Shown: positions 31,268-55,126 of the stretch, in pieces | Position numbering within the stretch: the stretch's first letter is position 1 | How the letters are laid out: every line of letters begins with the position of its first letter | Sequence record: MT682705.1 | Reading direction: 5' to 3' (one strand) | Length of the DNA stretch: 57,585 nt | Origin: Escherichia phage vB_EcoS_SP8 | Notes under the pieces: model-generated | The model's input: only the letters and a program-made list of their open reading frames with translations | Told to the model about the DNA's origin: nothing | Databases searched by the model: none | Position numbers and translations under genes: made by a program

Positions 31268-33817
31268 ATGCTGGAACTTTTTCCTCAAGAAATTAAACAA
31301 TACGAACAGTGGGCTGTCTGCGGTTTCCATCCAGGTACATCATCAGAAAAACAACCTTATGTATGGGACGATGATTTAGGGGATATGGTCCCACTTCGTA
31401 AAGACGGTAATGATAAGAAACCGTCTAACCTGCATTTACTTATGTCTTTTGAAGATGCTGAACGCTGCATTCGTTATTATAACGAGATTGGCCATAACTT
31501 GCGTTTAGGTTTCTATTTACTTCCAAGTGACCCGTTCTGTTGTATTGACATGGACATTAAAGATACCATGTCTGAAATGGAAAAGAAAGTTGCTGGTGAG
31601 CGATATAAGAAGATTGTTGAATCGTTCCATAGCTATACGGAAATTTCCAGAAGCGGTGATGGGTTGCACACATGGATTTATTCTATCCCTCAAGCTGGTA
31701 AGCGCCGTGATGGTGTGGAAGTGTATTCACAATATCGTTTTATTATCTGTACAGGCGATCACTGGGATGTTACTCCGCGCACTGTGTCTGGTGCTCCAGG
31801 CAGTGAAAGCGAAGGGTATATTGCTAATCTCATTCATCAGCTTATGTCTGAGATGAGTGAGATTAATGAGTCTGATGGCTTCCAAATGCTGGAACTTACT
31901 GAAGAAGATTTTAGTAACGACCCATATGCAATGGAAGATCAGGATGTCTATATTCAGTTGTGTGAACAAGAAAACGGGACATTGTTTAAGCAGCTATGGG
32001 AAGGTCGTTGGAGAGCTGAAGAAGTTGATACTTCTATCGGTGAACGCTGTTTCCCTTCTCAGTCTGAAGCAGAATTTGCATTAATTGACTTTCTTTGCTT
32101 TAAGAGCAAGTATAATTTCCAGGTAAGACGCCTATTCATGTATTCACCAATGAGTAGTCGTTACGATGATTCCCGTCGTCTGCCTGGTGAAAAAATCAAA
32201 CGTCCGTATCACCTGGATAGAATGATTCGTAACTACCGCTATGATGCCCATGTTAAATCTATGGGACTTATGCAGATAGTTCAGAATAACGTTAATGCAG
32301 CTATAGAGCGCACGGAGAAACTGCGTCAAGCAACTACACCAGAACGCCCACCTGAAGAAGTGTTGACCACAGATGGCAATTACACTGAAGAGCAGGCAGA
32401 CGGTTTGGCTTGGCCTCCGGGCTTTATGGGCGAGGTTGCGCGTAACATGTATAAAGCGAGCTTGTTGCCTATTAAAGACATTAGTATTCTGTCTGCTCTT
32501 GCTTTATTTAGTGGTATGTGCGGTAAGGCGTGGAACACAGTCACACGAAGTGGTCTGAATAACTACTTTGTATTAATTGCACGTTCTGGTATTGGTAAAG
32601 AAGCGTTTCGCTCTAACATTGAAACTATTCTTTCTCAAGTATCCAATTATGGCGGCCAGGACGGTCAGCAGATATTTGGTATTGAACGTGTTTTGGATAC
32701 AAGTACCTATGCGTCTGATGCTGCATTGCGCAAGGATGTCATAATGGATACGTCCGTTATGTCTTGTGGCTCATCCATCAACTATAAGACTGAAGTCGGT
32801 GCATTTTTCCGTAACGGTAAGATGGAAGTTGGTAAAGCTAAAGACATTATGGATGAAATGCTTTCCCTTTATGACAAGGGGCATTTCTATGCTTTCTCTG
32901 GTGGTTCAAAACACTCTAGTAAAGATAATACGACTGCTGGAGGTAAGGTTAAGGCGTATAGTTTTGCAGGTGAAACAACACCAGATGAATTTTATGGCAA
33001 CGTAGACGACCGTATGATGTCGAGTGGCTTCATGTCCCGCATTATCGCATGGGAATGTACAGCTAACCGCCCATTGATGAATAAGAGTATGCTCCTGGAA
33101 TATCCAGAAGCAATTCTGCGCACTATTGGAGCTATCTATAAACAAGCTGTGCGCATTATGTCAGGGACTGCCCCATGCTATGTTGAAATGGAAGCAGAGG
33201 TACACGAAGCATTTGATAATCTTGATAATGTTGTTGCGAAGTTCCTGAACAGCGGCAATGATGGTGAGCAGGTACAAGACGAAGTAATTCGTCAGATGTA
33301 CACAAGGAAGGCGTTGAAGGTATTGCGTATCGCTTCTCTTCTTGCTGTAGCGGATAACAGTGAGCGTCCTGTTGTTACTATGGAACATTATCGTTGGGCT
33401 GAGTCATTTATTGATCAGGGTAACGAGCGTTTCTTAGAGAAGCGTAATAGTGGGCAGATTGGGTCTACAGATAGTACCAGTCGTGAGAAAATAATGCTCA
33501 ACTCTATCAAGAAGTTCTTGGATGGGGAAGTTAAAGCTGGTGTGTATAAACGGTTCCCAATGTTTAAGGGCGCGTTTATTGTCACACGGAGTGACTTATG
33601 TACTTATTGTAGACAATTTAAAGCGTTCAAGCAGACAAGAAATGACAACATCTTGCAGGTCATAGACAACACAATTTATGGTTTGATGTCTATGGAAGTT
33701 CTTACTGAAATGAGGCCAATGGACTTTTCAAGTTTCTTCGGTGCAGAGTTTACACCACCGAGGATGAAGTGTTATTTGGTAGACATTGAGAGAATGAACG
33801 AAGTTATTAAGTTATAA
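31268..33817 (+). CDS. DNA primase-polymerase (AEP-like) fused to a helicase-like C-terminal domain
   Basis: 849-aa ORF; N-terminal CCIDMDIKD (DxD) and SGDGLHTW motifs typical of archaeo-eukaryotic primase folds; Walker A-like SGIGKE in the C-terminal half. Confidence 0.55.
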   Translation: MLELFPQEIKQYEQWAVCGFHPGTSSEKQPYVWDDDLGDMVPLRKDGNDKKPSNLHLLMSFEDAERCIRYYNEIGHNLRLGFYLLPSDPFCCIDMDIKDTMSEMEKKVAGERYKKIVESFHSYTEISRSGDGLHTWIYSIPQAGKRRDGVEVYSQYRFIICTGDHWDVTPRTVSGAPGSESEGYIANLIHQLMSEMSEINESDGFQMLELTEEDFSNDPYAMEDQDVYIQLCEQENGTLFKQLWEGRWRAEEVDTSIGERCFPSQSEAEFALIDFLCFKSKYNFQVRRLFMYSPMSSRYDDSRRLPGEKIKRPYHLDRMIRNYRYDAHVKSMGLMQIVQNNVNAAIERTEKLRQATTPERPPEEVLTTDGNYTEEQADGLAWPPGFMGEVARNMYKASLLPIKDISILSALALFSGMCGKAWNTVTRSGLNNYFVLIARSGIGKEAFRSNIETILSQVSNYGGQDGQQIFGIERVLDTSTYASDAALRKDVIMDTSVMSCGSSINYKTEVGAFFRNGKMEVGKAKDIMDEMLSLYDKGHFYAFSGGSKHSSKDNTTAGGKVKAYSFAGETTPDEFYGNVDDRMMSSGFMSRIIAWECTANRPLMNKSMLLEYPEAILRTIGAIYKQAVRIMSGTAPCYVEMEAEVHEAFDNLDNVVAKFLNSGNDGEQVQDEVIRQMYTRKALKVLRIASLLAVADNSERPVVTMEHYRWAESFIDQGNERFLEKRNSGQIGSTDSTSREKIMLNSIKKFLDGEVKAGVYKRFPMFKGAFIVTRSDLCTYCRQFKAFKQTRNDNILQVIDNTIYGLMSMEVLTEMRPMDFSSFFGAEFTPPRMKCYLVDIERMNEVIKL

Positions 33818-35927: not shown

Positions 35928-36404
35928 ATGGATTGGAATCACTATTTTCAATATAGATGCGGAAAACTTTATTGGAAAATCAATAAAGGACGTTCTAAGG
36001 TAGGTGATGAAGCTGGATATATTCATAAATCACATGGATATATTTGTATCACACTTAATCGTAAGGAGTATTATGCCCACCGCATCATTTGGGAAATGCA
36101 CTATGGGCCAATACCAGAAGGAATGGAAATCGATCATATCTGGCATGATCGTCAAGATAACCGCATTGAGAATTTACGGTTAGTGAGTAAATCAGGTAAT
36201 GCTAGAAATCAGTCTAAGTTTAAGAATAATAGTAGTGGCGTGACTGGTGTCAGTTTTGACAAATCAGTTGGTAAATGGATAGTTCAAATTGGAGTAAATG
36301 GAATTAATAAAACTCTTGGATGTTTCGAAGAGTTTAATAAAGCTGTTGAAATTCGTCGTAAAGCAGAGATTAAATACGGTTATCATGTAAATCATGGTAA
36401 GTAA
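35928..36404 (+). CDS. HNH homing endonuclease with AP2-like DNA-binding domain
   Basis: EIDHIWHDRQDNRIENLRLVSKSGNARN (HNH) followed by SGVTGVSF...KWIVQIGVNG...FEEFNKAVEIRRKAEIKYGY (AP2-like); AT-rich. Confidence 0.6.
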   Translation: MDWNHYFQYRCGKLYWKINKGRSKVGDEAGYIHKSHGYICITLNRKEYYAHRIIWEMHYGPIPEGMEIDHIWHDRQDNRIENLRLVSKSGNARNQSKFKNNSSGVTGVSFDKSVGKWIVQIGVNGINKTLGCFEEFNKAVEIRRKAEIKYGYHVNHGK

Positions 36405-36583
36405 TAGCTGACGAATTCGTGTATTGTAATCAAACACGTAAACAGGTTAACATTATTTGCGAGAGTGGTTGGTAGATTACCCCTTTTCGAAGGCTGTCTC
36501 TCGCTGACATGTTATTATCTATTATATGCTTCGCTTTCTGGGGTACTTGTGTACCCCCTATTTTTTGGATGGAGATTTATAAC

Positions 36584-37045
36584 ATGGGAGCTAATCCTCG
36601 TACCAAAGGTCAAACAGGTGAGCGTGAAATTTGTAAATTCTTTAATGATATCTACGAAGAAGTTTACGCCGCTCTTGGAATGACTTATCCGGAAAAGCCC
36701 ATAGCACAACGTAACCAGAATCAGAGTGCTGTAGGTGGTTGTGATATCACAAATACCTGTTTCTATGCGGTGGAAGTTAAACGCCAGGAACAGTTATCAA
36801 TTAATACATGGTGGGCACAGTGTGTTAAGAGTGCATTAGAAGCAGACAAGTTTCCAGTTCTTATGTACCGTCAGAATAAAAAGCCCTGGCGCGTAGTCCT
36901 GTATATGAACCCTATCATGCTTTTCGCGGATGAAGCGAAACATCACAAAGAAGATCCCCCAAGATGTGAAATATCCCTGGAAGATTTTCGGATAATCTTT
37001 AAATCACATGCTTATGAATATATCAAGAGGAATGGTCACGCTTAG
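36584..37045 (+). CDS. putative PD-(D/E)xK family nuclease
   Basis: GQTGERE ... GGCDITN ... FYAVEVKRQE arrangement resembles E / D / E-x-K catalytic residues; start at ATG (MGANPR). Confidence 0.35.
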   Translation: MGANPRTKGQTGEREICKFFNDIYEEVYAALGMTYPEKPIAQRNQNQSAVGGCDITNTCFYAVEVKRQEQLSINTWWAQCVKSALEADKFPVLMYRQNKKPWRVVLYMNPIMLFADEAKHHKEDPPRCEISLEDFRIIFKSHAYEYIKRNGHA

Positions 37046-39790: not shown

Positions 39791-40537
39791 ATGCAATTTA
39801 CAACTACCGCTCAAGCAGTTTTGGACACTGGTGTCAAGATGCTTGTGTATGGTGAATCCGGTATGGGTAAGACCATGCTTACAGCAACTCTTCCAAGACC
39901 GTTGCTGATTTCTGCGGAGTCTGGGCTTTTATCTTTAACACCGAATAACATTGCTCGTGTATTTGGTGAAAACAGACCAGATATCTGCTACGATATTCCA
40001 ACCATCACGGTTGAAAATATCCAGGATGTAGAGCAGGCTTATGTTTGGGCGACTAACCCTGCAAACAATCCTGTAGGTGAAGATGGTTTACCGCGCTTTC
40101 AGTCTCTTGCGCTGGATTCACTTACTGAGATTGCTGAAAAGTGCCTTAACAATGCGAAGCGTACTGTGAAAGATCCGCGTCAGGCTTATGGGGATCTTAT
40201 TGAGAAGATGCAAACTTTAGTTCGCGCTTTTCGAGATATCCCTGGACTTAACGTGTACATGGCAGCTAAAATGTCCCGTAACAAGGACGAGTTGACAGGT
40301 ATTACGTCTTACGGTCCTTCTATGCCTGGTGCAAAATTAGGTCCAGAATTACCATACTTTTTTGACGAAGTGTTCAAAATTAGTGTTGGTAAAGACCAAA
40401 ATACTCAAGCAGATTTTCGTTATCTGCTGACCAGACCAGATCTGTCAAATGTATGTAAAGATCGTTCTGGTTCGTTAGAACAGATGGAATATCCACATCT
40501 TGGTGCAATCATTAACAAAATCAAAGGGGTACAATAA
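39791..40537 (+). CDS. RecA-like ATPase (Sak4-like recombination protein)
   Basis: Walker A YGESGMGKT near N-terminus; about 248 aa; followed by SSB-like and nuclease genes. Confidence 0.45.
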   Translation: MQFTTTAQAVLDTGVKMLVYGESGMGKTMLTATLPRPLLISAESGLLSLTPNNIARVFGENRPDICYDIPTITVENIQDVEQAYVWATNPANNPVGEDGLPRFQSLALDSLTEIAEKCLNNAKRTVKDPRQAYGDLIEKMQTLVRAFRDIPGLNVYMAAKMSRNKDELTGITSYGPSMPGAKLGPELPYFFDEVFKISVGKDQNTQADFRYLLTRPDLSNVCKDRSGSLEQMEYPHLGAIINKIKGVQ

Positions 40538-41457
40538 TGGCCGGTTTAGGAATGCAATTTAACGCTGGACAACACGCAGAGCGTCAACACAATAGCTTGA
40601 TGCCAGCTGGTTGGTATGTTGTTCAGATTGTAAACTCTGAGATCAAACCGACTAAAACTCCAGGCGGTGCGCGTCTGAATCTTCAGTTTAAGATTATGCA
40701 GGGTGATTTTGCTGGTCGTGTAATGTTTGGCGGTTACAACGTCAAAAACGCAAACCCTGTCGCTGTACAGATTGCAATGGAAGAACTGGCAGAGCTGTCC
40801 CGTGCTGTTAAAGTTCCAGTCTGGAACGATACTGAACAACTGCACGGTATTCCGTTCAACCTGAAAGTGAAAGTTCGTCAGCAACCTGGCTATGAGCCAA
40901 ACAACGAACCTCAGATTTATCAAGCAATTGATAATATGGAAGGTGTTGTATACGCAACTAAAGCGGATATGGCTAACCTGCCTAAATCAACTCCAGCAGC
41001 GGCAGCACAGTCTCCAGCATTTGGTGGCGGTGCGTTCGGTGGTACTCAGCAGCCACAGCAGCAACCGCAGCAGGGTTTCCCGGGCGCATTTGGGCAGCAG
41101 CCGCAGCAACAGCAGCAGCAACCTCAGACTCAGGGGTTCCAGCAGCAACAACAGCAACAACAGCCGCAGCAGCCGGTACAGCAACAGCAGCAACCGCAGC
41201 AGTCTGGAACAGTTGATTTTAACAGTGCGGCACAATCTCAACCGTGGGCTAATGGTGCGCAGAAGCAGACTCAGCAGCAACCTAACTGGGCAACTCAGCA
41301 GGTACAGCCTGGAGCAGAGCAACCGCAAACTCAAGCTCAGAATACTGGTACTGCTAACCATGCAGAACCTGAAGTCCAGGATGATATCGCTAAAGCAGCT
41401 CAGACCAAGACTCCACCGTGGAAACGTTCCACTGAAGGCGATGACGCTGCACAGTAA
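40537..41457 (+). CDS. putative ssDNA-binding protein with Gln/Pro-rich tail
   Basis: position after Sak4-like gene; internal 50-residue Q/P-rich low-complexity tract; function inferred from context only. Confidence 0.3.
   Translation: MAGLGMQFNAGQHAERQHNSLMPAGWYVVQIVNSEIKPTKTPGGARLNLQFKIMQGDFAGRVMFGGYNVKNANPVAVQIAMEELAELSRAVKVPVWNDTEQLHGIPFNLKVKVRQQPGYEPNNEPQIYQAIDNMEGVVYATKADMANLPKSTPAAAAQSPAFGGGAFGGTQQPQQQPQQGFPGAFGQQPQQQQQQPQTQGFQQQQQQQQPQQPVQQQQQPQQSGTVDFNSAAQSQPWANGAQKQTQQQPNWATQQVQPGAEQPQTQAQNTGTANHAEPEVQDDIAKAAQTKTPPWKRSTEGDDAAQ
41044..41202 (+). repeat. CAG/CAA-rich simple sequence tract encoding poly-Gln/Pro
   Basis: cagcagccacagcagcaaccgcagcag... read directly. Confidence 0.6.
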
Positions 41458-41476
41458 TTAAAAATCATGTTATAAT

Positions 41477-41504
41477 AAAGCTCCTCCGGGAGCTTTATTT
41501 TTCT
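41477..41504 (+). terminator. rho-independent terminator
   Basis: stem AAAGCTCC / GGAGCTTT with 4-nt loop, followed by ATTTTTCT. Confidence 0.6.
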
Positions 41505-41519
41505 ATATAGGATTATGAT

Positions 41520-42470
41520 ATGCCACATTTTTATCCTGCTACTAAGACAATGGAGTTATTCAATGACTGTATTGAACGAGATCAAGGATCCGCTTACAGA
41601 GTATGGCTCGGAAAAGTATTACCGCATATTGAAGACGCATATCGAGAGGGGGATGGCGGATTCCGTTCGCATCTTGGGATTAGTCTTATTGGACAAGAAT
41701 GTAGTAGAGCAATCTTCTACGGATGGAGATGGGCAACTAAACCACACTTTAACGGTAAAACCTTACGTCTATTCAATCGCGGGCATCTTGAAGAAGGTCG
41801 CTTCGTGGCCTTACTACTTACCGCCGGTATGCAAGTCATCCAACAAGACGAAAATGGCAGCCAGTATCGAGTCAGCTATCTCAACGGGCACTTTGGCTCT
41901 GCGATAGATGGTATTGTCATTGGTTGCCCCGACATGCCGCAACCTTCTACACCAATCTTGACGGAAATGAAAACGCACAATAACGATTCGTTCAAGAAAC
42001 TTGTCGTTAATGGTGTGAAGGAATCTAAGTGGGAGCACTATGTCCAGATGCAGGAATACATGTTGTATTATGGACTTCCAGCCGCTCTTTATATTGCAGT
42101 TAACAAGAACACAGATGAGATTTGGGCAGAGCTTGTACCGTTTGACAGTGAGACCGCAGAACGTTACAAGGACCGTGGATTTGTAATTGCATTGGCAGAA
42201 TGTCCACCGCCTAAACTCAATGAAAGTAAATCTTACTATAAATGCAAATGGTGTGATCACAAGGCGGTGTGCCATAACAACAAAATGCCTGAAGTTAACT
42301 GCCGCACATGTAAGCACTCATACCCACTTGAAGATGGAACCTGGAGATGTGCAATTAAAGTAGCTTCCGCTACTGCATACATCACTGATGGAACCGAAGG
42401 TGTATTAACGAAGGAAGATCAGATGGCAGCATGTGGTCAATACGAAGCAGCAGATTATTACGGTGAGTAA
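41520..42470 (+). CDS. PD-(D/E)xK exonuclease with C-terminal Cys cluster (Cas4/RecB-like)
   Basis: AIDGIV ... ILTEMK (D, E-x-K) and C-x13-C-x2-C-x5-C (CPPPK...YYKCKWCDHKAVC) typical of Fe-S-containing Cas4/AddB-type nucleases. Confidence 0.5.
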   Translation: MPHFYPATKTMELFNDCIERDQGSAYRVWLGKVLPHIEDAYREGDGGFRSHLGISLIGQECSRAIFYGWRWATKPHFNGKTLRLFNRGHLEEGRFVALLLTAGMQVIQQDENGSQYRVSYLNGHFGSAIDGIVIGCPDMPQPSTPILTEMKTHNNDSFKKLVVNGVKESKWEHYVQMQEYMLYYGLPAALYIAVNKNTDEIWAELVPFDSETAERYKDRGFVIALAECPPPKLNESKSYYKCKWCDHKAVCHNNKMPEVNCRTCKHSYPLEDGTWRCAIKVASATAYITDGTEGVLTKEDQMAACGQYEAADYYGE

Positions 42471-44474
42471 ATGTTCAAACTACGTGATTATCAGCAAGAA
42501 GCTGTAAACAGTACATTGCGCTATTTCATCAAGCATGGTGAAAAGTCAGGAAATCCTGTTATCTTGTTGCCTACAGGGACTGGTAAGTCCCTTGTAATTG
42601 CTGGTCTATTAAAGACAATTCACGATAATTGGGGTAGTACCCGCATGATGGTAATTACTCACGTAAAAGAATTGATAGACCAGAACCACGATAAATTTAA
42701 GAAGTTGTGGCCTGAAGCACCGACTGGTATTTATAGTGCTGGTATGGGTCGCAAGGATAAGAATGCAATGATAACGTTCGCAGGTATTCAGTCTGTTGCA
42801 AAACAAGCTAAATACTTTGAGGACGTTGATATTATTATAGTGGACGAATGTGACCTTATTAGTCCAAATCAGCAAACAAGTTATCAGAAGTTCTTTGCAC
42901 ATATCCGTGAAAAGAACCCATATGTAAAGATTATCGGTCTTACTGCTACAAGCTGGCGTCTTGGTTTTGGTTCTATTATCAAAGATGACTATGCTCCTAA
43001 TGCTCTATTTGATGAAATCGTATTTAACGCGTGTACTGTAGAGTGCTTCAACTGGTTTATTGATGAAGGTTATCTGGTTCCGTTAGTACCACGTAAAACA
43101 AAGAAAGAGTATGATGTAAGTGGTGTTCATACTCGAGGCGGTGAGTTCATTGAAAGTGAACTTCAGAAGGTTGTAAACGACCCTGATGTAACACGCCATT
43201 TGTTAGATGATGCGATTAGTATTGCGGAAGAAGAGAATAGAATGAGTTGGCTTATCTTTTGTGCTGGTGTAGACCATGCAAAAGATGTAAAAGACTATCT
43301 TAATGAACGCGGTATTAGTTGCGAAGTTGTAACTGGTGACACACCAAAAGCCTTGCGTGACCAGTACCTCATTGACTTTAAAGCTGGTCGTTTGCAGGCA
43401 ATAGCGAACAACAACGTATTGACGACAGGCTTTGACCATCCTGGTCTTGACTTGATAATTGGTATGCGCCCGTCCCAATCTTCCCGCTTATGGGTTCAGA
43501 TGCTTGGACGTGGTACTCGACCTGATTATGCTGATGGTTTTGATTTGACCACAACGGAAGGTCGTTTGCAAGCTATCTCCGCTTCACATAAACAGAACTG
43601 TCTTGTACTAGACTATGCAGGTAATACAAGACGTCTTGGGCCTATTAACGATCCTGTAATTCCTAAGCGTCCAGGGCAGAAAGGAAAGTCCGCTGCACCT
43701 GTTAAAGAATGCCCGGTATGTAAGACCTGGAACCATGCGTCAGTTCGCTATTGTGGTGGGTTAAAACCATTCGATACAAGCAGTATGTCTCATGAAGAAA
43801 TACTCTATCTACAAGGATTAGGATATACCATTACGAATAATAAAGCGTGTCGTGCTGGTTATTGCGGTCATGAGTTTACTTTTGAGAAGAAACTAATGGC
43901 GAGTGCAAGTACGAAAGCTATTATCAAGAATGATTTACCAGTTACAGAAGTGTTGAAAGTTGATATGGTGAGTTACTATCGTCACGAGAACAGAGGTGAC
44001 CGTTCTAAGCCACCAACACTTCGTGTTGACTATCTTTGTGGCTCACAAACTATTCAACAATATATTTGCCTATTCCATACTGGCTTTGCAGGTAAGAAAG
44101 CGCGTAACTGGTGGCGTGAGCATTGCAGCTTGGCAATCCCAGCTAACATTGACGAAGCTCTCAATGTGGTTAGCCAGCTTCGTGTACCGACGCACATTTA
44201 TGTCAACTTGAAGGGTAAGTTCCCCGAAGTGTTGAATAGTTGTTATGACGGTAGTGAGTTCGGTAAGAAAGAAGCAACAAACGAACGTCCGGTTGTACAA
44301 ATTGCAGCAATGAATGGTCTGTCCCAGTTTGGTGGAAGTTATACGAATAAGTTTGATGAAGATGAGCAGACTGATTCCCGTACGACAGTATTGCATTCTA
44401 CGTTTAATCAACCTATTCTTACTGGTAACGGTAAAGAACTACCACCAGACTTTGATGACGACATTCCGTTTTGA
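42471..44474 (+). CDS. SF2 DNA helicase (DEAD/DEAH-like)
   Basis: motif I LPTGTGKS, motif II IVDECD; 667 aa. Confidence 0.7.
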   Translation: MFKLRDYQQEAVNSTLRYFIKHGEKSGNPVILLPTGTGKSLVIAGLLKTIHDNWGSTRMMVITHVKELIDQNHDKFKKLWPEAPTGIYSAGMGRKDKNAMITFAGIQSVAKQAKYFEDVDIIIVDECDLISPNQQTSYQKFFAHIREKNPYVKIIGLTATSWRLGFGSIIKDDYAPNALFDEIVFNACTVECFNWFIDEGYLVPLVPRKTKKEYDVSGVHTRGGEFIESELQKVVNDPDVTRHLLDDAISIAEEENRMSWLIFCAGVDHAKDVKDYLNERGISCEVVTGDTPKALRDQYLIDFKAGRLQAIANNNVLTTGFDHPGLDLIIGMRPSQSSRLWVQMLGRGTRPDYADGFDLTTTEGRLQAISASHKQNCLVLDYAGNTRRLGPINDPVIPKRPGQKGKSAAPVKECPVCKTWNHASVRYCGGLKPFDTSSMSHEEILYLQGLGYTITNNKACRAGYCGHEFTFEKKLMASASTKAIIKNDLPVTEVLKVDMVSYYRHENRGDRSKPPTLRVDYLCGSQTIQQYICLFHTGFAGKKARNWWREHCSLAIPANIDEALNVVSQLRVPTHIYVNLKGKFPEVLNSCYDGSEFGKKEATNERPVVQIAAMNGLSQFGGSYTNKFDEDEQTDSRTTVLHSTFNQPILTGNGKELPPDFDDDIPF

Positions 44475-44481
44475 GGCTTAT

Positions 44482-44721
44482 ATGGCAAAGATGACGTTTA
44501 GAAGTGACGACTATTCACCGGAAGATGGTGAATGGAAGACTTTTAAAGAGTGGGAGGCGTTAGGTTACGGTGTAATTAAAGGAGAAAGAGCTAAACGATT
44601 TATTCATGGTGTAGCAGTTTTTCACGAAAGTCAAGTAATCAATATTGAAGACGAGTTTGAAAATTACATGCGTGAAGAACTACGTGGAATGTATTGTGGG
44701 CCCGAATGGTGGAAGGATTAA
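44482..44721 (+). CDS. hypothetical protein
   Basis: 79-codon ORF starting at ATG (MAKMTF). Confidence 0.35.
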   Translation: MAKMTFRSDDYSPEDGEWKTFKEWEALGYGVIKGERAKRFIHGVAVFHESQVINIEDEFENYMREELRGMYCGPEWWKD

Positions 44722-52163: not shown

Positions 52164-53156
52164 ATGGATTTGCTTGATGCTTTAAAGTTTGTTCAAGGCT
52201 CCGTCGCGAAGAAAGAACTCCAGGAAGGTTTGACTCACTTCCGTATTGTTGATGGTACTGTGCGCGGGTTCAACGGAACTATTTCATTGTGTAGTCCAGT
52301 GCCGCTGAATATTGACTGTACACCTAAAGCTGAACCAATGTTGAAGGCTATTGCAGCATGTGATGAAGCTGTACAGATGACAATGTTGGCGAACGGTAAG
52401 TTGAGCATTAAGTCTGGTGGCTTTAAGGTTAGTGTAGATACTCTTCAGAAACCAACTGCACACGTAGAGCCAGAAGGAACAATTCACGAAATAGACGGTC
52501 AGCTTTTTCTCAACGGTTTAAGCCGTGTAACGCCGTTTATAAGCGACGATGCTTCCCGCCCGTGGTCTTGCGGCGTGCTGGTAAAACAGGGCAGCATGTA
52601 CGCGACCAACAACGCTAGTATTATACAGTATTGGTTCGGTGCTGTATTCCCTGTAGATTGTGTTGTGCCACGTATGGCCATCAAAGAATTATTGCGTATT
52701 AAAAAGCCACCAGTAAGAATTCAATGTACAGATACCAGTATGACATTTCACTACGAAGACGGTTGCTGGTTGCGTACCCAATTACTGGAATTAAAATGGC
52801 CCAATATTGACAAGATAATTGAGCGTACAGAAAAGGGGTCTAACGTCTATACGCTTGATACTGAGCTTTTTAACTGCTTAGAAAAGATAAAACCGTTCTG
52901 TGAACGTGATGGGCGTATTTACATGGAAAATGGTGTTGTGCGTACCCATTACAACGAGCTGGACGGCGCTAGTGCAATGTTCCGGGAATCTAAGTCGATT
53001 GGTGTGTATAATATAGATCTTATTATGCAGTTGAAAGGACTTGCAACGGATTGGGACGCTTCTCGTTTCAATGAAAAGGACGAAAGGGGTCTTTCAACTC
53101 CTATTATTTTTTATGGTGAAAATCTACGTGGGGTAATTGTAGGATTTCGTCTATGA
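52164..53156 (+). CDS. hypothetical protein, possible sliding clamp (DnaN-like pattern)
   Basis: by-eye collinearity with E. coli beta clamp segments (e.g. CVVPRMAIKELLRI vs VIVPRKGVIELMRM); immediately upstream of the DNA polymerase gene; weak. Confidence 0.3.
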   Translation: MDLLDALKFVQGSVAKKELQEGLTHFRIVDGTVRGFNGTISLCSPVPLNIDCTPKAEPMLKAIAACDEAVQMTMLANGKLSIKSGGFKVSVDTLQKPTAHVEPEGTIHEIDGQLFLNGLSRVTPFISDDASRPWSCGVLVKQGSMYATNNASIIQYWFGAVFPVDCVVPRMAIKELLRIKKPPVRIQCTDTSMTFHYEDGCWLRTQLLELKWPNIDKIIERTEKGSNVYTLDTELFNCLEKIKPFCERDGRIYMENGVVRTHYNELDGASAMFRESKSIGVYNIDLIMQLKGLATDWDASRFNEKDERGLSTPIIFYGENLRGVIVGFRL

Positions 53157-55126
53157 GAAAAGACGCGATTGGGTTTTTCTGGACGGATTTACCTCCCGCT
53201 AAGAAAGAGAAGAAACAGAAAGTAAAACGTCAACCAGTTGAAAGGGTATGGGAACGCCCAGACTACCTTCCAGGTCTTGATGCAGCAATGCGTTTTGCAG
53301 CTAATGATCCGCGTATGACAGACGGTGAATTAGTGGAAATGTATTTTGCACAAGAAACGTTCGTATACGATATCGAATGTTATAAGAATTATTTTCTTGT
53401 GGCGTTTAAAGGGGTTAAGTTCGGTAAGGTTTATTATCTAGAAATGACTGCCGGTCAGACACTTGACACGGAAAAATATGAATGGATAATGAAGAACTTT
53501 CGTACCGTTGGTTTCAACTCAAGAAACTACGATAATACGATGACATTCCTTGCCATTGCTGGTTTAACTGTTGACAAGCTAAAAGAAGCAAGTGACAGGA
53601 TGATCCAGGAAGAGTGGGCTCCGTGGGACATTCTTAACAGTTTTGGGGTAAAACAGTTTTGGATTGACCACATTGACGTTCAAGAAGTAGCTCCGGGCTT
53701 CGGTTCGTTGAAGCTGTATGGTGGCCGTATGCACATGCAGAAGCTCCAGGACTTACCATTCCCACCACATTGGGCGTTATCCGTAGAACAGATTGCTATT
53801 GTGCGCTTCTACTGTATTAACGACCTTGATACAACAATGGCTCTGTTTAACTCACTGGAAGAGCAAATCCATCTACGTGAGATTATGAGTGAAGAGTATA
53901 AAGTAGATCTTCGCTCTAAATCCGATGCACAGATTGCAGAAGCTGTAATCCGCCATGAAATGAAGGAAATGCTGGGCTTCGTACCACAGAAGGGTATGGT
54001 GGAAGTTGGCAGAACCTTTAGGTACAATCCTCCAGTGTGGTTAGGTTTCCAAACGCCACTAATGAAGTCCGTATTTCAGGTTGTGCTTGATAGTTACTTC
54101 CGAGTCGCAGAGGATGGTAAAATTAAGCAACCATCGACAATGAACTCTCTGAAGTTTACAATCAATCAGACAACTTACAACATGGGTATCGGTGGTCTGC
54201 ACTCATGCGAAGAGTTAATGGAGATTGTACCATCTGAAGATGAAGAGATGTGGGATGCTGACGTAACGTCATACTACCCGATCTGTATCATTAACCAGCG
54301 ACTATATCCTGAGCACCTGGGCCCGCGCTTTATAGATATTTTCGTTAAGATCGTAGAACGACGTATTGCAGCTAAGATGGCTCATGACGATAAGACCTCA
54401 CAGACTCTTAAGATCGTTATTAACGGTTCTTATGGTAAGTTCGGTTCACCGTTCTCTATTCTGTATGCACCGCATCTTATTATTCAGACCACATTGACAG
54501 GTCAGTTGGCTCTGCTTATGCTCATTGAAACACTAGAGCTTAACGGCATTCAGGTCGTTAGTGCTAACACGGATGGTATCGTTATTAAGCCTTGCAAAGC
54601 TAAGAAGCAATTAATGACGGATATCATTAAGTGGTGGGAAGAAACAACTGGCTTTGAAATGGAGTTGAACCAATACCTGCGTCTTAACTCTGCAAACGTC
54701 AACAACTACGTCGCAATCAAAGCAGATGGTAAAGCCAAGCGTAAAGGTTGGTTCGCAGAGACAGGTCTAGCTAAGAACGCGGAAGGTGAGATTATTATGG
54801 ATGCTGTGGTCAACCTTCTCCGTGACGGTACACCAATTGCTAAAACTATCACAGAGTGTCAGGACATTCGTAAGTTTGTTTGTATCAAGACAGCTAACGG
54901 TGGCGCTGCATGGAATAGTGAGCCATTGGGTAAAGTCGTTCGCTGGTATTATACAAAAGAGGAAGTACCTGAGATACTAATAGTCAAGAGTGGTGGTCGT
55001 GTCGGTAAGACAGCAGGGGGTAAACCTATGATGGAACTCACTGACCAGTTACCGCCGGATCTCAACCACGAAGTGTACATAGCTAAAGCGGAAAAATTGC
55101 TGGAAAAACTCGCATACGCCGCTTAA
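53153..55126 (+). CDS. DNA polymerase, family B-like
   Basis: Exo I-like YDIECY; motif A DVTSYYP; motif B KIVINGSYGKFG; motif C SANTDGIVI. Confidence 0.7.
   Translation: MRKDAIGFFWTDLPPAKKEKKQKVKRQPVERVWERPDYLPGLDAAMRFAANDPRMTDGELVEMYFAQETFVYDIECYKNYFLVAFKGVKFGKVYYLEMTAGQTLDTEKYEWIMKNFRTVGFNSRNYDNTMTFLAIAGLTVDKLKEASDRMIQEEWAPWDILNSFGVKQFWIDHIDVQEVAPGFGSLKLYGGRMHMQKLQDLPFPPHWALSVEQIAIVRFYCINDLDTTMALFNSLEEQIHLREIMSEEYKVDLRSKSDAQIAEAVIRHEMKEMLGFVPQKGMVEVGRTFRYNPPVWLGFQTPLMKSVFQVVLDSYFRVAEDGKIKQPSTMNSLKFTINQTTYNMGIGGLHSCEELMEIVPSEDEEMWDADVTSYYPICIINQRLYPEHLGPRFIDIFVKIVERRIAAKMAHDDKTSQTLKIVINGSYGKFGSPFSILYAPHLIIQTTLTGQLALLMLIETLELNGIQVVSANTDGIVIKPCKAKKQLMTDIIKWWEETTGFEMELNQYLRLNSANVNNYVAIKADGKAKRKGWFAETGLAKNAEGEIIMDAVVNLLRDGTPIAKTITECQDIRKFVCIKTANGGAAWNSEPLGKVVRWYYTKEEVPEILIVKSGGRVGKTAGGKPMMELTDQLPPDLNHEVYIAKAEKLLEKLAYAA

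What the first reader, a model, noticed from the sequence alone, without database searches (positions are those of the whole stretch)
39791..42470. Sak4-like ATPase, Q-rich SSB-like protein and Cas4-like Fe-S nuclease module
Three consecutive genes form a recombination-type module: a RecA-like ATPase with Walker A YGESGMGKT, a putative SSB with a long Gln/Pro tract, and a PD-(D/E)xK nuclease with a C-x13-C-x2-C-x5-C cluster characteristic of Cas4/AddB-type Fe-S nucleases, followed by an SF2 helicase. A Cas4-family nuclease in a phage is notable because such proteins can act in recombination-dependent replication and have also been linked to interference with CRISPR adaptation.
Basis: partly seen in the sequence, partly recalled or inferred. 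Interest (0 to 1): 0.5.

Follow-up and report, generated by a model that had tools for sequence, protein, structure and literature searches.

The report
Known phage recombination gene module

Summary
The window is a Nonagvirus (phage 9g/JenP1/SE1-like) genome, 95-97% identical to known phages over 39791-44474. RefSeq already names these genes [quoted passage not shown]. The ATPase is homologous to Sak4 of phage PA73, which has annealing activity in vivo. The Q-rich protein is a DUF669 SSB with a predicted OB fold, a Q/P/G-rich linker and a conserved PPW tip. The nuclease has a RecB/Cas4/lambda-Exo fold with invariant D130, E149-x-K151 and Q176-x3-Y180.

One correction: the first cluster cysteine is invariant N-terminal C61, the canonical Cas4/AddB layout.

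The order Sak4-SSB-nuclease-helicase recurs in unrelated phage genera, including PA73. The best reading is an end-resection and annealing system for recombination-dependent replication. There is no sign of a CRISPR role.

Side observations, apparently undescribed:
- A second invariant Cys4 site in the nuclease.
- The helicase is a RadD homolog ending in DFDDDIPF, the E. coli SSB C-terminal tip, conserved in 116 of 120 homologs.

Verdict: real, correctly interpreted, already known.

The parts
39791..40537 (+). Sak4-like RecA-core ATPase (248 aa), predicted single-strand annealing protein
   Evidence: Pfam AAA_24 6.8e-23 and phrog_124 1.4e-54. BLASTP 8e-25, 28% identity over the full length, to PA73 ORF032. 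The profile gives weak RadA/Rad51/KaiC hits in PDB.
39848..39874 (+). Walker A motif YGESGMGKT (aa 20-28). The Walker B motif LALDS lies at aa 106-110 (nt 40106-40120).
   Evidence: G26, K27, T28, D109 and S110 are invariant in the module alignment.
40537..41457 (+). DUF669-type SSB (306 aa): OB domain about aa 20-130, disordered linker, C-terminal tip
41014..41346 (+). Q/P/G-rich low-complexity linker (aa 160-270: 48 Q, 13 P, 12 G), encoded by CAG/CAA repeats
   Evidence: Its length varies among near-identical phages (261, 266, 303, 306 aa). The overlapping ORFs 40892-41461(+) and 40987-41361(-) are repeat artefacts.
41413..41421 (+). Conserved PPW motif (aa 293-295) near the SSB C-terminus, a candidate partner-binding tip
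   Evidence: (P/A)PW is conserved in VpKK5, BP63, Yazdi-M, MiCath and metagenomic DUF669 homologs while the linkers differ. The function is inferred by analogy with the HK620 SSB tail NDYPPF (PMC5928155).
41474..41504 (+). Terminator-like hairpin plus T-run between the SSB and nuclease genes
   Evidence: 11-bp stem AAUAAAGCUCC/GGAGCUUUAUU followed by T5. Fold -17.1 kcal/mol, z -3.7. 100% identical in phage SE1. Function not shown.
41520..42470 (+). Cas4-like (iron-staple RecB-family) PD-(D/E)XK nuclease, 316 aa
41700..41702 (+). C61, the invariant N-terminal cysteine and predicted fourth ligand of the Fe-S cluster
   Evidence: 146/146. It sits at the start of helix 62-69. Its position relative to motif II (69 aa upstream) resembles Pcal_0546 C64/D123 (PMC4176176).
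41907..42059 (+). RecB catalytic motifs: D130 (II), E149-x-K151 (III), Q176-x3-Y180 (QhXXY)
   Evidence: D130, K151 and Q176 146/146; E149 145/146; Y180 137/146. Motif definitions from PMC4176176.
42243..42272 (+). C242-x2-C245-x5-C251, the C-terminal three cysteines of the Cas4/AddB-type cluster
   Evidence: 145-146/146 conserved. Same CX2CX5C spacing as SSO0001 C188/191/197 and Pcal_0546 C200/203/209 (PMC4176176).
42300..42434 (+). Second invariant cysteine quartet C261-x2-C264-x12-C277-x27-C305: an extra C-terminal metal-binding module, ligand unknown
   Evidence: All four are 146/146 and also conserved in VpKK5, BP63, Yazdi-M and MiCath. Some members give weak zinc-ribbon Pfam hits. pLDDT 75-93.
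42471..44474 (+). RadD-like SF2 helicase (667 aa)
   Evidence: PDB 6jde E. coli RadD 1.3e-64. BLASTP to MG1655 RadD 37% identity over 431 aa, 7e-74, including the CPxC zinc knuckle. Pfam ResIII/DEAD/Helicase_C.
44448..44471 (+). Helicase C-terminal tip PDFDDDIPF, identical to the E. coli SSB C-terminal tip motif DDDIPF
   Evidence: 95 of 120 homologs end in IPF and 21 more in xPF, after non-conserved linkers. E. coli RadD ends ...AHELRG with no such tip.

Best explanation
The four genes form a conserved phage homologous-recombination / recombination-dependent-replication module.

Proposed sequence of events (gene identities are shown by homology; biochemical steps are inferred from characterised relatives):
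1. The Cas4-like nuclease is a RecB-family PD-(D/E)XK enzyme stapled by an Fe-S cluster on C61/C242/C245/C251. It resects the 5' strand at double-strand ends or gaps, probably together with the translationally coupled RadD-like helicase.
2. The exposed 3' single strand is coated by the DUF669 OB-fold SSB.
3. The SSB's flexible Q/P/G linker presents a C-terminal tip (PPW) that recruits the Sak4 ATPase.
4. Sak4, a RecA-core-only protein, uses ATP to anneal the strand to a complementary single strand, for example at a fork or another resected end.
5. The RadD-like motor extends or branch-migrates the joint.
6. The neighbouring PDDEXK_15 nuclease, RNase H and ATP-dependent ligase finish the products.

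The outcome is repair of broken phage genomes and formation of concatemers for packaging.
For: Identity of the parts:
- Sak4.
- SSB.
- Nuclease.
- RadD-like helicase.

Linkage of the genes:
- The order Sak4-SSB-(0-2 inserted genes)-nuclease-helicase is conserved in Vibrio phage VpKK5, Salmonella phage BP63 (Rosemountvirus), Pseudomonas phages Yazdi-M and PA73 (Septimatrevirus) and MiCath.
- The window's three proteins match PA73 gp032, gp031 and gp030 at 8e-25, 7e-11 and 2e-54.
- tblastn finds the nuclease in 422 phage records and Sak4 in 448, with nearly identical genus counts: Pseudomonas 97/99, Escherichia 55/55, Salmonella 48/49, Stenotrophomonas 24/24, Xanthomonas 19/19, Moraxella 13/13.
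- Start and stop codons overlap or abut.
- The flanks carry RNase H, an ATP-dependent ligase, a PDDEXK_15 nuclease, dUTPase and a primase.

Literature on relatives:
- PA73 Sak4 anneals in vivo (PMC2896510).
- HK620 Sak4 is an ATP-dependent annealase stimulated by its DUF669 SSB through the SSB's last six residues (PMC5928155).
- phi11 Sak4 and its SSB are needed for phage replication and concatemer formation (PMC5499656).
- Cas4 is a 5'-3' exonuclease with an Fe-S cluster (PMC3466216, PMC4176176).
- RadD accelerates RecA strand exchange and binds SSB (PMC8887467, PMC10238739).
- An exonuclease plus Sak4 pair was already proposed as a conserved recombination system for KL1, PA73 and BcepGomr (PMC3483164).
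Against: - No biochemical or genetic data exist for these proteins in any nonagvirus.
- The window's Sak4 shows only Walker-A similarity to the best-characterised Sak4, that of HK620.
- The HK620 SSB is not detectably similar to this SSB by BLASTP or Pfam.
- The fold search cannot separate a Cas4-like from a lambda-Exo-like mode of action. LHK-Exo and lambda Exo score as high as Cas4.
- Nuclease polarity and Fe-S binding are inferred only.
- A terminator-like hairpin separates the Sak4-SSB pair from the nuclease-helicase pair, so the two pairs may be expressed differently.
- E. coli RadD has no demonstrated helicase activity on its own (PMC8887467).
Confidence: 0.75

Rival explanations
1. This is a replication-fork module rather than a recombination module. 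The nuclease and helicase act like Dna2 or AddAB-type flap and Okazaki-fragment processors at the phage replisome. The SSB is simply the replicative SSB. The AAA_24 ATPase serves as a loader or remodeller rather than an annealase.
Against: Two relatives of the ATPase family (PA73, HK620) have annealing activity (PMC2896510, PMC5928155). RadD is a recombination accessory factor (PMC8887467). The two readings are not mutually exclusive, because recombination-dependent replication uses both.
Confidence: 0.15
2. The Cas4-like nuclease is a counter-defence factor that perturbs host CRISPR adaptation, as reported for Campylobacter phages, or otherwise targets host defence DNA transactions.
For: [quoted passage not shown] 10 of 30 family members weakly match PF12705.
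Against: The gene is tightly syntenic and co-distributed with Sak4, SSB and a RadD-like helicase across phages of many hosts. No cas gene is annotated in the 22.7 kb around the module in phage SE1, which is 96% identical here, and the only tandem repeats in the window are short. The family does not reach the Cas4 model thresholds.
Confidence: 0.04
3. The nuclease, with the helicase, degrades unmodified host DNA to supply nucleotides, while the phage's own 7-deazaguanine-modified DNA is spared.
For: The window carries the queuosine/7-deazaguanine gene set: QueE-like radical SAM, with QueD, GTP cyclohydrolase and a tRNA-ribosyltransferase-like gene in the SE1 annotation. A dUTPase lies nearby.
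Against: In the record annotation fetched, the same module occurs in the Septimatrevirus phages PA73 and Yazdi-M and in the Rosemountvirus BP63 with no queuosine-pathway gene in the flanks shown (about 4.5 kb each side). The conserved partners are an annealase and an SSB, not nucleotide-salvage enzymes.
Confidence: 0.05

Closest known systems
Sak4 - SSB - exonuclease - SF2 helicase module of Pseudomonas phage PA73 / Burkholderia phage KL1 (Septimatrevirus)
   Same: Same four genes in the same order. All three core proteins are homologous, at 8e-25, 7e-11 and 2e-54. All eight nuclease cysteines are conserved in the PA73-like phage Yazdi-M. PA73 Sak4 has annealing activity in E. coli (PMC2896510). 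The pair was already proposed as a conserved recombination system (PMC3483164).
   Different: Identity is only 28-32%. The PA73-type nuclease has a roughly 47-aa insertion between motifs. The helicase of the PA73-like phage Yazdi-M lacks the DDDIPF tip; the C-terminus of the PA73 helicase itself was not read.
HK620 Sak4 (HkaL) + DUF669 SSB (HkaK)
   Same: A RecA-core ATPase of Pfam AAA_24 sits next to a non-canonical SSB. The SSB C-terminal tip drives Sak4 loading and annealing (PMC5928155).
   Different: Sequence similarity is limited to the Walker A motif. The HK620 SSB ends in NDYPPF, whereas here PPW lies 11 residues from the end. HK620 has no Cas4-like nuclease or RadD-like helicase and instead carries Abc2, which hijacks RecBCD (PMC5928155).
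Lambda Red (Exo/Beta) and RecET
   Different: The annealase here is an ATP-dependent RecA-core protein, not Rad52-like. The nuclease carries Fe-S-type cysteines that lambda Exo and RecE lack. A dedicated SSB and helicase are part of the set.
Cas4 (SSO0001, Pcal_0546) and other iron-staple nucleases (AddB, Dna2, Exo5)
   Same: [quoted passage not shown] Fold matches are.
   Different: There is no CRISPR context. The protein falls below the curated thresholds of the Cas4 HMMs. It has an extra N-terminal helical segment and an extra C-terminal module with a second invariant Cys4 site.
E. coli RadD
   Same: 37% identity over the SF2 core and zinc knuckle. RadD is a recombination accessory motor that binds the SSB C-terminus (PMC8887467, PMC10238739).
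   Different: The C-terminal 250 aa are unrelated. The phage protein itself ends in an SSB-type DDDIPF tip, which E. coli RadD lacks.
T7 gp4 helicase-primase and gp2.5 SSB acidic C-terminal tails ending in Phe (own knowledge, not checked here)
   Same: A phage helicase carries an acidic, aromatic-terminated tail of the same kind as an SSB tail, used for protein-protein docking in the replisome.
   Different: T7 gp4 is an SF4 hexameric helicase. Here the tail copies the host SSB tip exactly and sits on an SF2 RadD homolog. Its partners are unknown.

Membership tests
Sak4 family (RecA/Rad51-core-only phage annealases; Lopes 2010) | P-loop RecA-like core with Walker A and Walker B motifs | tested here: met
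   GESGMGKT at aa 21-28 and LALDS at aa 106-110, invariant in the module alignment. Pfam AAA_24 6.8e-23. Profile hits to RadA, Rad51 and KaiC in PDB are weak, E 0.013-2.
Sak4 family (RecA/Rad51-core-only phage annealases; Lopes 2010) | Core only: no extra N- or C-terminal DNA-binding domain, about 220-250 aa | tested here: met
   248 aa, with AAA_24 covering aa 14-226.
Sak4 family (RecA/Rad51-core-only phage annealases; Lopes 2010) | Sequence homology to an experimentally tested Sak4 | tested here: met
   PA73 ORF032: 28% identity over the full length, E 8e-25. phrog_124 1.4e-54. HK620 Sak4 shares only the Walker A motif by BLASTP, although both match AAA_24.
Sak4 family (RecA/Rad51-core-only phage annealases; Lopes 2010) | ssb gene adjacent (about 80% of sak4 genes; PMC5928155) | tested here: met
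   The SSB gene overlaps the Sak4 stop codon by 1 nt.
Sak4 family (RecA/Rad51-core-only phage annealases; Lopes 2010) | ATP-dependent ssDNA binding and annealing activity | not testable with these tools
   Needs purified protein or a recombineering assay.
DUF669 / N4-type phage SSB | Match to Pfam PF05037 above the gathering score | tested here: met
   35.4 bits against a cut-off of 21, E 1.4e-08, aa 14-116. phrog_6015 5.6e-93.
DUF669 / N4-type phage SSB | OB fold | tested here: met
DUF669 / N4-type phage SSB | Disordered linker followed by an acidic C-terminal tip ending in an aromatic residue | tested here: inconclusive
   A Q/P/G linker is present. The tip is not canonical: a conserved (P/A)PW lies 2-11 residues before the end and no terminal Phe is present.
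DUF669 / N4-type phage SSB | ssDNA binding | not testable with these tools
   Shown only for HK620 HkaK and the N4 SSB (PMC5928155, PMC4889955).
Cas4 / iron-staple RecB-family nucleases | RecB motifs II (D), III (ExK) and QhXXY | tested here: met
   D130, E149-x-K151 and Q176-x3-Y180 are invariant or nearly so in 146 sequences. Same order as Pcal_0546 D123/E136/K138/Q149/Y153 (PMC4176176).
Cas4 / iron-staple RecB-family nucleases | Four conserved Cys: one N-terminal and three C-terminal as C-x2-C-x5-C | tested here: met
C61 146/146, C242 145/146, C245 and C251 146/146.
Cas4 / iron-staple RecB-family nucleases | RecB-like PD-(D/E)XK fold similar to solved Cas4 structures | tested here: met
Cas4 / iron-staple RecB-family nucleases | Fe-S cluster actually bound | not testable with these tools
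   Needs spectroscopy or metal analysis.
Cas4 proper (PF01930 / TIGR00372, CRISPR-associated) | Score above the curated threshold of the Cas4 HMMs | tested here: not met
   The window protein has no Pfam or NCBIfam hit. Among 30 homologs, Cas_Cas4 matched 2 (best 0.024), TIGR00372 matched 1 (9e-4) and PDDEXK_1 matched 10 (best 2e-5). PDB sequence searches found no Cas4 or AddB.
Cas4 proper (PF01930 / TIGR00372, CRISPR-associated) | Association with cas1/cas2 or a CRISPR array | tested here: not met
   The neighbours are phage replication and recombination genes. Only four short tandem repeats occur in the window.
RadD (SF2 recombination accessory helicase) | Homology across the SF2 motor and zinc knuckle | tested here: met
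   E 1.3e-64 to PDB 6jde. 37% identity, E 7e-74, to MG1655 RadD aa 2-391 including CPxC.
RadD (SF2 recombination accessory helicase) | RadD C-terminal domain and SSB-Ct binding pocket | tested here: inconclusive
   The C-terminal 267 aa have no PDB sequence match and do not align to RadD. Pocket residues were not examined.

The most novel reading that the evidence does not exclude
The module may contain two undescribed features.

(a) The RadD-like helicase carries an exact copy of the host SSB C-terminal tip (DFDDDIPF) on a variable linker. This tip is conserved in about 97% of its 120 closest homologs, while the phage's own SSB uses a different PPW tip. The phage may therefore split the SSB 'hub' function. 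Its helicase would dock into, or compete for, the SSB-tip pockets of host proteins or of phage Sak4 or polymerase, while its SSB would address only cognate partners.

(b) The Cas4-like nuclease binds a second metal centre through an invariant extra Cys4 site. That would make it a two-centre variant of the iron-staple nucleases.
Probability: 0.3. Interest if true: 0.55.

Novelty: already known. Interest (0 to 1): 0.2.

Why it matters
As submitted, the finding adds little. It re-derives from raw sequence the annotation that near-identical RefSeq nonagviruses already carry, for a module recognised in the literature since 2010-2012. Its value is as confirmation and as a cleaner definition: which cysteines form the Cas4-type site, and that the helicase is a RadD homolog.

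If the side observations hold, they would give testable handles on two questions. One is how Sak4-type annealases, their SSBs and helicases talk to each other and to the host SSB interactome. The other is the role of a second metal site in phage Cas4-like nucleases. The module could also be tried as an ATP-dependent recombineering system.

Tried and rejected
- Direct sequence searches of the nuclease against PDB chains, as a single sequence and as a 30-sequence profile, found no Cas4, AddB or lambda Exo. They returned only spurious ankyrin/DARPin matches to the segment RGHLEE..QQDENG. The Cas4 link therefore rests on fold and motifs, not on sequence E-values.
- Pfam and NCBIfam gave nothing for the window nuclease itself.
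- BLASTP of the window Sak4 and SSB against the characterised HK620 proteins gave only the Walker A motif or nothing. HK620 HkaK did not match DUF669 in my Pfam scan despite the published assignment. I used PA73 as the experimental anchor instead.
- The word-indexed homolog search with the SSB OB domain returned only 8 proteins, so the SSB model rests on a shallow alignment (pLDDT 77).
- PDB sequence searches with Sak4 and SSB alone were uninformative.
- The ORFs overlapping the Q-tract, 40892-41461 (+) and 40987-41361 (-), were rejected as repeat artefacts.
- The sigma-70-like promoter scan was no better than shuffled sequence (15 found against 17.1 expected), so no promoter is claimed.
- Literature searches for a phage helicase with an SSB-Ct tip found nothing relevant. 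The library is not exhaustive, so this is not proof of novelty.
Full report
WHAT THE WINDOW IS. The stretch 39791-44474 is 95-97% identical over its full length to 17 records of Nonagvirus phages, including 9g, JenP1/P2/K1, SE1, BRET and the BASEL phages FritzHoffmann and ChristophMerian. In the RefSeq versions, the four genes under the match are already named [quoted passage not shown]. The window (57.6 kb) has structural genes on the minus strand and early, replication and 7-deazaguanine-pathway genes on the plus strand.

OBSERVATION CHECK. The first two genes overlap by one base. The nuclease stop codon abuts the helicase start. Each gene has a Shine-Dalgarno-like sequence. Walker A YGESGMGKT is at aa 20-28 and Walker B LALDS at aa 106-110. 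The second protein has 48 Gln, 13 Pro and 12 Gly in aa 160-270, encoded by imperfect CAG/CAA repeats. The literal pattern C-x13-C-x2-C-x5-C is at aa 228-251 of the third protein.

SAK4-LIKE ATPASE. It matches Pfam AAA_24 (6.8e-23) and phrog_124 "Sak4-like ssDNA annealing protein" (1.4e-54). By BLASTP it is 28% identical over its whole length (E 8e-25) to ORF032 of Pseudomonas phage PA73. That protein was shown by Lopes et al. to promote single-strand annealing in E. coli (PMC2896510). A six-sequence profile finds archaeal RadA, Rad51 and KaiC weakly in the PDB (E 0.013-2), in line with the published view of Sak4 as a Rad51/RadB-like core. Similarity to the best-characterised Sak4, that of HK620, is limited to the Walker A motif, although both match AAA_24.

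NUCLEASE. No Pfam, NCBIfam or PDB sequence hit was obtained for the window protein. It does match phrog_1990 "Cas4-domain exonuclease" (5.4e-115). Among 30 homologs, 10 weakly match PDDEXK_1 (best 2e-5), 2 match Cas_Cas4, 2 match Exo5 and 1 matches TIGR00372 cas4.

The motifs make that choice. The literature defines Cas4 by RecB motifs I, II, III and QhXXY plus four Cys, one N-terminal and three C-terminal. Examples are Pcal_0546 C64/C200/C203/C209 and SSO0001 C32/C188/C191/C197 (PMC4176176). A full HMMER scan of 1.84 billion representatives finds 3999 relatives. In an alignment of the window protein with 145 of the best ones (34-79% identity, median 40%), conservation is as follows:
- C61, C245, C251, D130, K151 and Q176: 146/146
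- C242 and E149: 145/146
- Y180: 137/146

The correct signature is therefore C61...C242-x2-C245-x5-C251.

A second quartet, C261-x2-C264-x12-C277-x27-C305, is also 146/146 and is conserved in all module-bearing genera examined. Canonical Cas4 and AddB domains end after CX2CX5C, so this is an extra metal-binding module. A few members give weak zinc-ribbon hits. Its ligand is unknown.

HELICASE. The downstream SF2 protein is a RadD homolog: E 1.3e-64 to PDB 6jde, and 37% identity over 431 aa to MG1655 RadD including the CPxC knuckle. RadD accelerates RecA-mediated strand exchange and binds the SSB C-terminus (PMC8887467, PMC10238739).

Its last residues, DFDDDIPF, reproduce the E. coli SSB C-terminal tip (DDDIPF; PMC5872125). 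Of the 120 closest homologs (44-99% identity), 95 end in IPF and 21 more in xPF, after linkers that are not conserved. A few carry two tips. E. coli RadD has no such tip, nor do the VpKK5, BP63 and Yazdi-M helicases. I found no paper describing this.

SYNTENY. The order Sak4 - SSB - (0-2 inserted genes) - nuclease - helicase recurs in five other phages:
- Vibrio phage VpKK5 (Queuovirinae)
- Salmonella phage BP63 (Rosemountvirus)
- Pseudomonas phages Yazdi-M and PA73 (Septimatrevirus)
- Pseudomonas phage MiCath

tblastn finds the nuclease in 422 phage records and Sak4 in 448, with almost identical genus counts. Upstream neighbours here are a PDDEXK_15 nuclease (called 'RusA-like' in RefSeq), dUTPase, DUF7173, RNase H and an ATP-dependent ligase. 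A terminator-like hairpin with a T-run lies between the SSB and nuclease genes (z -3.7) and is 100% identical in SE1. It may lower expression of the enzymes relative to the stoichiometric SSB, which is an inference.

MECHANISM. The shown parts are gene identities, motif conservation and linkage. The inferred pathway is as follows:
1. The nuclease, perhaps with the coupled helicase, resects 5' strands. Cas4 is a 5'-3' exonuclease (PMC3466216).
2. The SSB coats the 3' tail and its tip recruits Sak4, as in HK620 (PMC5928155).
3. Sak4 anneals the strand to complementary ssDNA using ATP.
4. The RadD-like motor extends the joint, and the nearby nuclease, RNase H and ligase finish it.

In phi11, Sak4 and its SSB are required for replication and concatemer formation (PMC5499656). 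That is the likely biological role here. Confidence is about 0.75.

RIVALS.
- A purely replisomal, Dna2-like role (0.15). This is not exclusive of the above.
- CRISPR-adaptation interference, as in Campylobacter phages (0.04). There is no cas context and the gene is tightly linked to recombination genes.
- Host-DNA degradation (0.05). The module also occurs in phages of other genera (PA73, Yazdi-M, BP63) where no queuosine-pathway gene is annotated in the roughly 4.5 kb fetched on each side.

COMPARISON AND NOVELTY. The closest known system is the PA73/KL1 Sak4-exonuclease module, already proposed as a conserved recombination system (PMC3483164). HK620 Sak4-SSB supplies the biochemistry. Lambda Red and RecET are functional analogues with a structurally related exonuclease but a different annealase.

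The nuclease meets the motif and fold definition of a Cas4-like iron-staple nuclease. It fails the curated Cas4 HMM thresholds and has no CRISPR context. It belongs with the PF12705-type, non-CRISPR phage nucleases discussed by Hudaiberdiev et al. (PMC5704561).

The finding is real and correctly read but already known. Interest is low (0.2). The second Cys4 site, the PPW tip of the SSB and the SSB-tip mimic on the RadD-like helicase are the only elements that may be new. They are unproven.

Noticed in passing
window 44448-44471 (end of helicase gene 42471-44474): The RadD-like helicase ends in DFDDDIPF, the E. coli SSB C-terminal tip. 116 of 120 homologs end in (D/E)(D/E)[IV]PF-like tips after non-conserved linkers, and a few have two tips in tandem. 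E. coli RadD and the VpKK5, BP63 and Yazdi-M helicases lack the tip. No description was found in the paper library.
   Followed up: partly
window 42300-42434 (nuclease aa 261-305): A second cysteine quartet, C261-x2-C264-x12-C277-x27-C305, is invariant in 146/146 family representatives. It lies beyond the point where canonical Cas4/AddB domains end. It could be a zinc site or a second Fe-S cluster; which one is unknown.
   Followed up: partly
window 41413-41421 (SSB aa 293-295): A (P/A)PW motif near the C-terminus is the only conserved element after the OB domain in DUF669 SSBs of this module across five phage genera and in metagenomic homologs. It replaces the usual acidic tip ending in Phe.
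   Followed up: partly
window 35928-36404: This gene encodes an HNH_3 endonuclease (Pfam 1.1e-23). It lies in a segment of about 470 bp that is absent from all 19 related nonagvirus records. This looks like a free-standing homing endonuclease insertion just upstream of the PDDEXK_15 nuclease gene.
   Followed up: partly
window 36509-37045: The gene annotated 'RusA-like Holliday junction resolvase' in RefSeq relatives matches Pfam PDDEXK_15 (9.8e-14), not RusA. It is a second PD-(D/E)XK nuclease near the module.
   Followed up: no
window 41474-41504: A strong terminator-like hairpin with a T-run lies between the SSB and nuclease genes. It is 100% identical in phage SE1, although the surrounding region is about 96% identical.
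   Followed up: partly
window 41014-41346: The SSB Q-tract is encoded by CAG/CAA repeats, and its length differs among near-identical phages (261, 266, 303 and 306 aa). It also generates spurious long ORFs in another frame and on the opposite strand.
   Followed up: partly
window 44482-44721: A small 79-aa protein directly after the helicase gives a sub-threshold match to the ArdC N-terminal ssDNA-binding domain (3.7e-4, 21.1 against 22.6 bits). RefSeq relatives call it 'ssDNA-binding domain-containing protein'.
   Followed up: no
window 54650-54723 (minus strand): ARAGORN calls a tRNA-Ala(tgc) inside, and antisense to, the 657-aa plus-strand ORF 53153-55126. It is probably a false positive.
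   Followed up: no
window 31268-33817: The primase (AEP-like domain plus DUF3987) is a single 849-aa ORF here. The SE1 RefSeq record annotates three consecutive 'DNA primase' CDSs in the corresponding region.
   Followed up: no
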